Shown here in pieces: positions 1 to 201 of a DNA stretch of 201 bases. The DNA lies in NCBI RefSeq assembly GCF_003334385.1, contig NZ_QOWN01000233.1. One strand, 5' to 3'. The notes below the pieces were generated by a model. It was not told the origin of the DNA, made no database searches, and saw only the letters and a program-made list of their open reading frames with translations. Made by a program: the position numbers and the translations under genes. How positions within the stretch are numbered: position 1 is the first letter of the stretch; each line of letters starts with the position of its first letter. This DNA is from Escherichia coli. GTDB lineage: Bacteria > Pseudomonadota > Gammaproteobacteria > Enterobacterales > Enterobacteriaceae.

Positions 1-30
1 ACAGTCCGTCACCCCGTGCTCAAAGCGCCG
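1..30 (-). other. Probable N-terminal edge of the NlpC/P60 (C40) peptidase-like domain, with a candidate catalytic Cys encoded at window 1-3 (RRFEHGVTDC)
   Basis: Seen in sequence: minus-strand codons from 28-30 (CGG, Arg) down to 1-3 (TGT, Cys) encode RRFEHGVTDC. Established knowledge: NlpC/P60 enzymes use a Cys-His-His/Asp catalytic core with the Cys near the domain N-terminus, often preceded by Asp. Inference: the domain boundary and the catalytic role of this Cys cannot be confirmed because the rest of the domain, including the His, lies outside the window. Confidence 0.5.
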
Positions 31-201
31 TCCTGTCAGATGTGGCACACAGCGGAATTTGTGAATGTCACCCCGGCTGACCAGCCACCAGGGCAGTGCG
101 CTTTTTATCTGCAGCCGCCGGTCGGCCTCGCTCAGCCAGGGCAGACCACCGGGATGACTGTGGACCAGTGCCACAATCTCCCCCTGCATCTCTGCCCGCA
201 G
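1..201 (-). CDS. Internal fragment (5' and 3' ends both outside window) of a lambda gpK-like phage tail tip assembly protein K: JAB/MPN metallopeptidase-like domain followed by the start of an NlpC/P60 (C40) peptidase-like domain
   Basis: Seen in sequence: the minus-strand frame with codons 201-199, 198-196 and so on has no stop across all 67 codons. Third-codon-position GC is about 70% against about 63% overall, and CTG is the dominant Leu codon (7 times), as in enterobacterial coding sequence. The other two minus frames contain TGA stops. The translation carries the JAMM motif HSHPGGLPWLSEAD and ends in FEHGVTDC. Established knowledge: lambda K-family proteins combine an N-terminal JAB/MPN domain with a C-terminal NlpC/P60 domain. 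Inference: assignment to the K family is from motif and architecture recognition, not from a search. Confidence 0.85.
   Translation of the reverse strand, partial: MRAEMQGEIVALVHSHPGGLPWLSEADRRLQIKSALPWWLVSRGDIHKFRCVPHLTGRRFEHGVTDC
121..162 (-). other. JAMM/MPN+ zinc-coordinating motif H-x-H-x7-S-x2-D (His-Ser-His-Pro-Gly-Gly-Leu-Pro-Trp-Leu-Ser-Glu-Ala-Asp), apparently intact
   Basis: Seen in sequence: minus-strand codons CAC(160-162) AGT CAT(154-156) CCC GGT GGT CTG CCC TGG CTG AGC(130-132) GAG GCC GAC(121-123) give HSHPGGLPWLSEAD. The spacing matches the canonical JAMM signature exactly (two His, seven residues, Ser, two residues, Asp). The preceding residues IVALV (window 163-177) form the hydrophobic strand that usually leads into this motif in JAB domains. 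Confidence 0.8.

What the first reader, a model, noticed from the sequence alone, without database searches (positions are those of the whole stretch)
121..162. Complete JAMM metal-binding signature retained, suggesting a catalytically competent JAB domain
Both His, the Ser and the Asp of H-x-H-x7-S-x2-D are present with exact canonical spacing. Many MPN domains are degenerate and inactive (MPN-minus), so an intact signature is worth recording. If this gene sits in a cryptic prophage, conservation of the motif would argue that it is still under purifying selection or only recently acquired. The upstream Glu that completes the JAMM active site would be encoded beyond window position 201 and cannot be checked here.
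Basis: partly seen in the sequence, partly recalled or inferred. Interest (0 to 1): 0.35.

Follow-up and report, generated by a model that had tools for sequence, protein, structure and literature searches.

The report
Lambda gpK tail-assembly protease active site
The window encodes part of a prophage copy of phage lambda's tail-tip assembly protein K, and the motif is its intact, strongly conserved zinc-protease (JAMM) active site, which was described for this protein family in 2006, so the finding is correct but ordinary.

Summary
On the minus strand, frame 1, the window is open end to end. It reads HSHPGGLPWLSEAD (H-x-H-x7-S-x2-D) at exactly 162..121.

The window is residues 55-121 of a 247-aa orthologue of phage lambda gpK, about 90% identical to it. 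The protein has an N-terminal Prok-JAB domain and a C-terminal NlpC/P60 domain. The gene sits in the lambda order H-M-L-K-I-J, inside a complete lambda-like head and tail module of E. coli-type prophages.

E19, H68, H70, S78 and D81 align with the catalytic residues of solved JAMM enzymes (PfJAMM1, an Rpn11-like archaeal enzyme). They are kept in 93-100 of 100 family representatives down to 33% identity. dN/dS is 0.10-0.16.

An intact motif is therefore the rule in this family, not an exception. The architecture, and the idea that K's JAB domain cuts the ubiquitin-like domain off the neighbouring protein gpI, were published in 2006. A 2025 conference report says this cleavage has now been shown for lambda.

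Side observation: the classical lambda reference lacks one G, so its 199-aa K annotation omits the catalytic Glu.

The parts
1..201 (-). Internal fragment (residues 55-121 of 247) of a lambda gpK-type tail-tip assembly protein gene
   Evidence: The frame is open over the whole window. The same DNA is found in L006 at 1663-1863, inside the 744-nt gene 1501-2244. It differs by 1 synonymous base from the E. coli 2012EL-2448 gene WP_106913351.
49..201 (-). C-terminal half of the Prok-JAB (JAMM/MPN+) domain, residues 55-105
   Evidence: Pfam PF14464 matches residues 3-105, E 9.7e-16. The AF2 model has pLDDT 97.3. Foldseek matches PfJAMM1 5LD9/5LDA with target TM 0.68-0.69 and rmsd 2.5-2.7 A.
121..162 (-). 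JAMM motif HSHPGGLPWLSEAD (H68-x-H70-x7-S78-x2-D81)
   Evidence: Translation, regex and shuffles, and alignment to solved JAMM enzymes. Conservation in 100 representatives: H 100, H 100, S 93 (plus 6 Thr), D 100.
160..162 (-). His68 codon (CAC), predicted zinc ligand
   Evidence: Invariant in 100/100 representatives and in 67/67 close nucleotide sequences.
154..156 (-). His70 codon (CAT), predicted zinc ligand
   Evidence: Invariant in 100/100 representatives. One close relative, L075, has CGT (Arg).
130..132 (-). Ser78 codon (AGC), the conserved JAMM serine
   Evidence: Ser in 93 of 100 representatives, Thr in 6, Gly in 1.
121..123 (-). Asp81 codon (GAC), predicted zinc ligand
   Evidence: Invariant in 100/100 representatives.
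34..48 (-). Short linker between the two peptidase domains (residues 106-110)
   Evidence: This is the gap between the Pfam domain boundaries 105 and 111.
1..33 (-). Start of the NlpC/P60 (C40) domain, residues 111-121, ending on the Asp120-Cys121 'DC' pair (Cys codon at 3-1)
   Evidence: Pfam PF00877 matches residues 111-224, E 2.9e-13. D120 is present in 100/100 and C121 in 99/100 representatives. Fold matches to MepS/Spr and LytE.

Best explanation
The window is part of the gene for a prophage orthologue of phage lambda gpK (tail-tip assembly protein K, also called TAPK). This 247-residue non-structural protein has an N-terminal JAMM/MPN+ metallopeptidase domain fused to a C-terminal NlpC/P60 cysteine-peptidase domain. 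The flagged motif is the JAMM active site.

By the general JAMM mechanism (established knowledge), H68, H70 and D81 hold a zinc ion. E19, encoded upstream of the window, activates the zinc-bound water, and S78 stabilises the tetrahedral intermediate.

The most likely substrate is the product of the next gene, gpI. This protein starts with a ubiquitin-like beta-grasp domain that ends in ...VPRLAGAG and continues into the plug domain found in the virion. K's JAB domain would cut the ubiquitin-like domain off during tail-tip assembly, and K itself then leaves, since it is absent from virions.

Shown here: gene identity, domain architecture, all five catalytic residues in the right alignment columns, deep conservation, purifying selection, and synteny with gpI.

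Inferred: metal binding, catalysis, and gpI as the substrate. The substrate inference rests on a 2006 prediction, a 2025 conference summary, and the fact that only gpI residues 135-223 are resolved in the lambda virion.
For: Identity:
- Best matches are K genes of lambdoid and Stx phages and E. coli prophages, at 98.5-99.5% DNA identity.
- The protein is about 90% identical to full-length lambda gpK.
- PHROG phrog_30 'minor tail protein' matches with E 1e-160.

Architecture:
- Pfam Prok-JAB covers residues 3-105 and NLPC_P60 covers 111-224.
- The AF2 model has pLDDT 97.3.
- Its two halves match PfJAMM1, AMSH-LP, CSN5 and BRCC36 on one side, and MepS and LytE on the other.

Active site:
- E19, H68, H70, S78 and D81 align with E/HSH/S/D of 2KKS, 2KCQ, PfJAMM1 and the Rpn11-like 6FJV.

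Conservation:
- In 100 representatives down to 33% identity the counts are E19 99, H68 100, H70 100, S78 93 (plus 6 Thr) and D81 100. The exact spacing is kept in 81 of 100.

Selection:
- dN/dS is 0.148 for the whole gene, 0.161 for the JAB domain and 0.102 for the window, across 67 unique genes. Against lambda it is 0.10.

Context:
- The module runs portal, protease, D, E, FI, FII, Z, U, V, G, T, H, M, L, K, I, J, stf, tfa.
- gpI carries Pfam Lambda_tail_I at residues 15-97, ending at PRLAGA.

Literature:
- TAPK was described as JAB + NlpC/P60 and predicted to process the Ubl of TAPI (PMC1779556).
- gpK is absent from lambda virions and only gpI 135-223 is resolved (PMC10721106).
- The Davidson group reported that gpK cleaves the Ubl of gpI (PMC12908700).
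- Deleting the F-pyocin homologue PA0639 gives tip-less tubes.
- Prokaryotic JAMMs cut linear Ubl fusions such as MoaD-MoaE (PMC8832034).
Against: - No enzymatic or metal-binding data exist for this protein or were obtainable here.
- The gpI-cleavage result is known to me only from a conference summary, not a full paper.
- That summary speaks of gpK's 'deubiquitinating domain' but does not separate the contributions of the JAB and NlpC/P60 domains. Iyer et al. allowed that either might process gpI.
- Whether the prophage that carries the window is inducible was not assessed, because only its structural half was seen.
- One close relative (L075) carries H70R, so individual copies can decay.
Confidence: 0.85

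Rival explanations
1. The JAB domain is a non-catalytic scaffold or chaperone, MPN-minus-like in function. The metal site would be kept only for structural stability, while processing is done by the NlpC/P60 domain or by nothing at all.
For: - gpK has classically been called an assembly factor or chaperone and is absent from virions.
- The NlpC/P60 triad candidates are equally conserved: C121 99, H187 99, H199 99 of 100.
- Iyer et al. considered that the papain-like domain might also process the Ubl.
Against: - The general-base Glu (99/100) and the Ser/Thr (99/100) are not metal ligands, and a purely structural site would not need them, yet they are conserved as strongly as the ligands.
- The conference report attributes Ubl removal to gpK and describes it as having a deubiquitinating domain.
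- The closest solved relatives are active desampylase-type JAMMs.
Confidence: 0.07
2. The JAB domain serves mainly as a counter-defence deubiquitinase. It would remove ubiquitin-like proteins that host Bil-type systems attach to the central tail fibre, rather than process gpI, or in addition to processing gpI.
For: - Hor et al. explicitly raise this speculation for DUB domains in siphophage tail-assembly proteins.
- K acts at the tail tip, next to gpJ, which is the Bil target.
Against: - K is needed for tail assembly in hosts with no Bil system: lambda K is required for tail assembly, and the PA0639 deletion is tip-less.
- The gene is almost always next to a Ubl-bearing gpI.
- No data show activity on Bil Ubl conjugates.
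Confidence: 0.05
3. The motif is a chance match or sits in a decaying pseudogene of a cryptic prophage, so it carries no functional information.
For: - The bare pattern arises in 0.16% of shuffled windows.
- The window peptide alone finds no solved relative and no NCBIfam family.
- One relative has H70R.
- The protein database holds many truncated or fused K fragments.
Against: - The gene is full length and uninterrupted in three loci with the exact window DNA.
- The whole morphogenesis module is intact.
- dN/dS is about 0.1.
- Pfam, profile and fold matches are all significant.
Confidence: 0.02

Closest known systems
Phage lambda gpK (tail tip assembly protein K, TAPK)
   Same: About 90% protein identity over 245-247 residues. 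Same JAB + NlpC/P60 architecture, same position between L and I, and an identical HSHPGGLPWLSEAD motif.
   Different: 8-9 amino-acid differences within the window (for example Q56R, V86I, Q87K, D89A, C96S, T99D). At residue 49 it has Ile where lambda has Met, so the 199-aa start used in the classical lambda annotation is not even available.
Archaeal and bacterial stand-alone JAMM/MPN+ desampylases and MoaD-processing enzymes (PfJAMM1 5LD9/5LDA, HvJAMM1, DR0402/DRJAMM, 2KKS, 2KCQ)
   Same: Same minimal MPN+ fold and the same E...HSHx7Sx2D site. Profile E-values run from 1e-13 to 4e-11, with rmsd 2.5-3.3 A. These enzymes cut a beta-grasp Ubl from whatever follows its C-terminal Gly, including linear fusions, which is the reaction proposed for gpI.
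   Different: Those enzymes are single-domain and act in sulfur-carrier or SAMP pathways. K is fused to an NlpC/P60 peptidase and acts in virion assembly. The NCBIfam desampylase model scores 30 bits against a cut-off of 130, so K is not a member of that equivalog.
Eukaryotic JAMM deubiquitinases (Rpn11, CSN5, AMSH/AMSH-LP, BRCC36)
   Same: Same catalytic motif and core fold.
   Different: The relation is very distant: profile E 0.01-0.6 and 11-21% identity. The eukaryotic enzymes carry Ins-1 and Ins-2 insertions and work in large complexes.
F-pyocin PA0639 (Pseudomonas tailocin gpK homologue)
   Same: A non-structural maturation factor needed to form the tail tip. Its deletion gives tip-less tubes.
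   Different: It belongs to a tailocin, not a phage. Its sequence relation to this protein was not examined here.

Membership tests
JAMM/MPN+ metallopeptidases (Pfam Prok-JAB PF14464) | Upstream catalytic Glu (E-x(n)-H-x-H...) | tested here: met
   E19 in PAESCGF is encoded 108 nt beyond window position 201. It is present in L006, L088 and L089, which carry the exact window DNA. It aligns with the Glu of 2KKS, 2KCQ, PfJAMM1 and 6FJV, and is present in 99/100 representatives.
JAMM/MPN+ metallopeptidases (Pfam Prok-JAB PF14464) | H-S/T-H pair of zinc ligands | tested here: met
   H68-S69-H70 at window 162-154 (minus strand). Both His are invariant in 100/100 representatives.
JAMM/MPN+ metallopeptidases (Pfam Prok-JAB PF14464) | Ser seven residues after the second His, and Asp two residues after the Ser | tested here: met
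   S78 and D81 have the exact spacing. D is present in 100/100 and S/T in 99/100 representatives.
JAMM/MPN+ metallopeptidases (Pfam Prok-JAB PF14464) | MPN fold | tested here: met
   Predicted model only: AF2 pLDDT 97.3. Foldseek finds PfJAMM1, 2KKS, AMSH-LP, CSN5 and BRCC36 at probability 1.00. Pfam E 9.7e-16.
JAMM/MPN+ metallopeptidases (Pfam Prok-JAB PF14464) | Zinc-dependent (iso)peptidase activity | not testable with these tools
   This needs biochemistry. The only support is a conference summary for lambda gpK.
Lambda gpK / TAPK tail-tip assembly proteins | JAB domain fused to an NlpC/P60 domain | tested here: met
   Pfam finds both domains, and the fold search matches both halves.
Lambda gpK / TAPK tail-tip assembly proteins | Gene located between L and the Ubl-bearing I, upstream of J | tested here: met
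   The gpI Ubl domain matches Pfam PF06805 at residues 15-97.
Lambda gpK / TAPK tail-tip assembly proteins | Required for tail assembly but absent from the virion | not testable with these tools
   Known for lambda and for F-pyocin PA0639 from the literature. Not tested for this prophage.
NlpC/P60 (C40) cysteine peptidases | Conserved Cys nucleophile and His residues in a papain-like fold | tested here: met
   C121 (window 3-1), H187 and H199 are each present in 99/100 representatives. Pfam E 2.9e-13. Fold matches to MepS and LytE. Which His pairs with the Cys was not resolved.
MPN-minus (inactive) domains | Loss of one or more motif residues | tested here: not met
   All five residues are present, so this is not an MPN-minus domain.
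NCBIfam NF041370 desampylase (equivalog) | Score above the curated cut-off of 130 bits | tested here: not met
   The score is 30.4 bits. K is related to this equivalog but is not a member.

The most novel reading that the evidence does not exclude
Besides maturing gpI, the conserved JAB active site of gpK-type proteins might act as a phage counter-defence. It would strip host Bil-type ubiquitin-like conjugates from the central tail fibre during tail-tip assembly. Hor et al. 2023 raise this as speculation, and nothing found here excludes it.
Probability: 0.05. Interest if true: 0.6.

Novelty: already known. Interest (0 to 1): 0.1.

Why it matters
The finding adds nothing new. It confirms that one more lambdoid prophage copy of gene K keeps a working-looking JAMM site, which is the norm for the family.

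The general system is of real interest: a phage-encoded deubiquitinase-like domain paired with a ubiquitin-like domain that times tail-tip assembly, an ancient prokaryotic Ubl/DUB pair. But it was predicted in 2006 and is reportedly now demonstrated for lambda.

The one practical point for annotators is that the classical lambda reference sequence (J02459/NC_001416) has a one-base gap. This truncates K to 199 aa and hides the catalytic Glu. Some pipelines also start gene I too late and cut into its ubiquitin-like domain.

Tried and rejected
- **Exact source search.** An exact 70-mer scan of the species-representative genome collection found nothing. The exact window was later found in a viral-contig locus (L006) and in two NCBI assemblies (L088, L089).
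- **Window peptide alone.** It has no NCBIfam family. Its only PDB hit is a spurious ribosomal L13 match at E 0.97. The full-length protein or a family profile was needed.
- **RNA element.** Rfam in sensitive mode gave three matches at 8-18 bits against gathering scores of 50-84. Rejected.
- **Plus-strand ORF 65-157 (30 aa).** It is antisense to a well-supported gene and has no support of its own. Rejected.
- **Pseudogene or cryptic-remnant reading.** Rejected for the loci seen, because the gene and the module are intact and dN/dS is about 0.1.
- **MPN-minus reading.** Rejected because all five residues are present.
- **Active-site geometry.** I could not inspect it in the AF2 model, because the coordinates were not among the files exposed to scripts (file listing).

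Full report
**Observation**

The window was read on both strands. Only the minus strand in frame 1 is open across all 67 codons: LRAEMQGEIVALVHSHPGGLPWLSEADRRLQIKSALPWWLVSRGDIHKFRCVPHLTGRRFEHGVTDC. The other two minus frames carry stops. The only + strand ORF is a 30-aa antisense one.

HSHPGGLPWLSEAD fits H-x-H-x7-S-x2-D exactly. The pattern occurs in some frame of 319 of 200,000 dinucleotide-preserving shuffles of the window, and in 1,431 of 2,000,000 shuffles of the peptide. The pattern alone is unlikely but not conclusive. Homology settles it.

**What the gene is**

The window matches K genes of lambdoid and Stx-converting phages at up to 98.5% identity. It matches 'C40 family peptidase' genes in 3,832 of 5,426 complete E. 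coli genomes, the best at 99.5%. The single difference from the best hit is a synonymous change at window position 124.

In E. coli 2012EL-2448 the gene is 744 nt (247 aa) and lies in the order H, M, (an ompC insert), L, K, I, J. Phage BP-4795 has the same order.

The exact window DNA occurs in a 45-kb viral contig (L006) and in two NCBI assemblies (L088, L089). There the same 247-aa protein sits in a complete lambda-like module. The module runs portal, S49 protease, D, E, FI, FII, Z, U, V, G, T, H, M, L, K, I, J, then two fibre genes, and then host genes.

The window encodes residues 55-121. Pfam finds Prok-JAB at residues 3-105 (E 9.7e-16) and NLPC_P60 at 111-224 (E 2.9e-13). PHROGs gives phrog_30 'minor tail protein' with E 1e-160. 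The window therefore covers the second half of the JAB domain (49-201), a short linker (34-48) and the first residues of the NlpC/P60 domain (1-33). It ends on Cys121, the conserved nucleophile.

**The upstream Glu and alignment to characterised enzymes**

Neither happens.

E19 (PAESCGF) is present in the source-identical loci.

- With the single sequence, 2KKS aligns PNEACGL, HSH, S and D to E19, H68, H70, S78 and D81.
- With a 100-sequence family profile, the hits are 2KKS (1e-13), 2KCQ (4.5e-13), PfJAMM1 5LD9/5LDA (4-5e-11), AfJAMM (1.8e-3), then an Rpn11-like archaeal enzyme, BRCC36 and Rpn11.
- A JAB-only profile gives the same picture. It prints the alignment to the Rpn11-like 6FJV with E, HSH, S and D in register.

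An AlphaFold2 model built on the family alignment has mean pLDDT 97.3. Its N-terminal half superposes on PfJAMM1 (target TM 0.68-0.69, rmsd 2.5-2.7 A), 2KKS, AMSH-LP, CSN5 and BRCC36. Its C-terminal half superposes on MepS/Spr and LytE.

**Conservation and selection**

A full HMMER scan of 1.84 billion cluster representatives found 2,825 relatives. I aligned 98 of these that span both domains (33-58% identical to the query), together with the query and lambda gpK. The counts out of 100 are:

| Residue | Present |
|---|---|
| E19 | 99 |
| H68 | 100 |
| H70 | 100 |
| S78 | 93 (plus 6 Thr) |
| D81 | 100 |
| D120 | 100 |
| C121 | 99 |
| H187 | 99 |
| H199 | 99 |

The exact H-x-H-x7-S-x2-D spacing holds in 81 of 100. 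An intact JAMM site is thus the rule in this family, which removes most of the 'worth recording' value.

Nei-Gojobori dN/dS was computed over 67 unique K genes. These came from my loci (82 in all, mostly the 80 viral contigs) plus lambda.

| Region | dN/dS |
|---|---|
| Whole gene | 0.148 |
| JAB domain | 0.161 |
| Window | 0.102 |
| Window source vs lambda | 0.10 |

These values show clear purifying selection. One copy, L075, has H70R.

**Mechanism**

Iyer, Burroughs and Aravind (2006, PMC1779556) described TAPK as JAB + NlpC/P60. They described the neighbouring TAPI (gpI) as carrying an N-terminal ThiS/MoaD-like ubiquitin fold that ends in a conserved Gly. They predicted that the JAB domain releases that domain.

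In the loci studied here, gpI's long ORF matches Pfam Lambda_tail_I at residues 15-97 and ends ...IHIVPRLAGAG-KGG.

- The lambda virion structure resolves only gpI residues 135-223, and mass spectrometry does not detect gpK in virions (PMC10721106).
- The Ur-lambda study also did not resolve gpK.
- A report of a 2025 conference says A. [quoted passage not shown] The cut happens only after gpI has joined other tip proteins (PMC12908700).
- Deleting the F-pyocin homologue PA0639 gives tip-less tubes.
- Prokaryotic JAMMs are known to cut linear Ubl fusions such as MoaD-MoaE (PMC8832034).

My best explanation is that the motif is the active site of a zinc peptidase that matures gpI during tail-tip assembly. 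The residue roles (His, His and Asp as zinc ligands, Glu as general base, Ser stabilising the intermediate) come from established knowledge of JAMM enzymes. They were not tested here.

**Rivals**

- A purely structural JAB domain fits poorly, because the non-ligand Glu and Ser are conserved as strongly as the ligands.
- A counter-defence role against Bil-type Ubl conjugation is speculated by Hor et al.. It cannot be excluded, but it cannot be the main role, because K is needed for assembly without Bil.
- Chance or pseudogene readings are refuted for the loci seen.

**Comparison and novelty**

The protein is a member of the lambda gpK/TAPK family and of the JAMM/MPN+ superfamily by every sequence and fold criterion I could test. 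Only catalysis itself is untestable with these tools. It is not a member of the NCBIfam desampylase equivalog, scoring 30 bits against a cut-off of 130. Everything in the finding was already described, so the result is 'already known' and of low interest.

**Seen in passing**

1. The classical lambda reference (J02459/NC_001416) lacks one G, reading GGC-TAT where two independently sequenced lambda genomes (PV340536, LC730321) read GGCGTAT. The N-terminal 48 residues of K, including the catalytic Glu, therefore fall in another frame, and K is annotated as 199 aa from Met49. A 2020 review analysed the 199-aa version and saw only the peptidase domain.
2. Short gpI starts (193 aa) cut into the Ubl domain. 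The long ORF overlaps K's last 33 or so codons. In K, synonymous diversity drops to 0.01-0.02 in codons 211-247 against 0.1-0.25 elsewhere, as expected for dual coding.
3. One prophage has an ompC porin gene inserted between M and L.
4. The protein database holds apparent L-K and K-I fusions.

Noticed in passing
window 1-33 (minus strand); Cys codon at 3-1: The window does not stop at the JAB domain. Its last 11 codons begin the NlpC/P60 domain and end on the Asp120-Cys121 'DC' pair. Cys121 is the conserved nucleophile of the second peptidase (99/100 representatives). The window therefore touches two active sites, not one.
   Followed up: yes
L003 (lambda NC_001416) about 1268, record position about 14267; compare L004 and L005: The classical lambda reference sequence lacks one G (GGC-TAT against GGCGTAT) relative to resequenced lambda genomes. 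Gene K is therefore annotated as 199 aa starting at Met49, and the N-terminal 48 residues, including the JAMM catalytic Glu, lie in another frame. Resequenced records give a 247-aa K. Some literature still analyses the 199-aa form.
   Followed up: yes
L006 2142-2822 (gene I) overlapping L006 2142-2244 (end of K): Pfam Lambda_tail_I matches residues 15-97 of the long 226-aa gpI ORF, so the 193-aa start used by some gene callers cuts into the ubiquitin-like domain. The long ORF overlaps the last 33 or so codons of K in another frame. Synonymous diversity in K drops about tenfold over codons 211-247, consistent with dual coding.
   Followed up: partly
L001 3770-4933: In the E. coli 2012EL-2448 prophage, a full-length porin gene annotated ompC is inserted between tail genes M and L. 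It looks like a moron inside the tail-tip operon.
   Followed up: no
L075, K codon 70: One of 67 unique K sequences has His70 changed to Arg (CAT to CGT). This is a single copy with a broken metal site, possibly a decaying prophage or a sequencing error.
   Followed up: no
protein hits P0024, P0026, P0030, P0032, P0040, P0043, P0099, P0109: The protein database contains ORFs that join K to L (PF05100 + JAB + NlpC/P60) or K to I (+ PF06805). They may be real fusions of the kind Iyer et al. mention, or frameshift or assembly artefacts.
   Followed up: no
L089 against L086-L088 and L090, beyond about 17500: The same tail module, with an identical K protein, is flanked by different host genes. In four loci these are NiFe hydrogenase genes. 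In L089 they are an ABC transporter and an M20 peptidase. This implies either different integration sites or module exchange between prophages.
   Followed up: no
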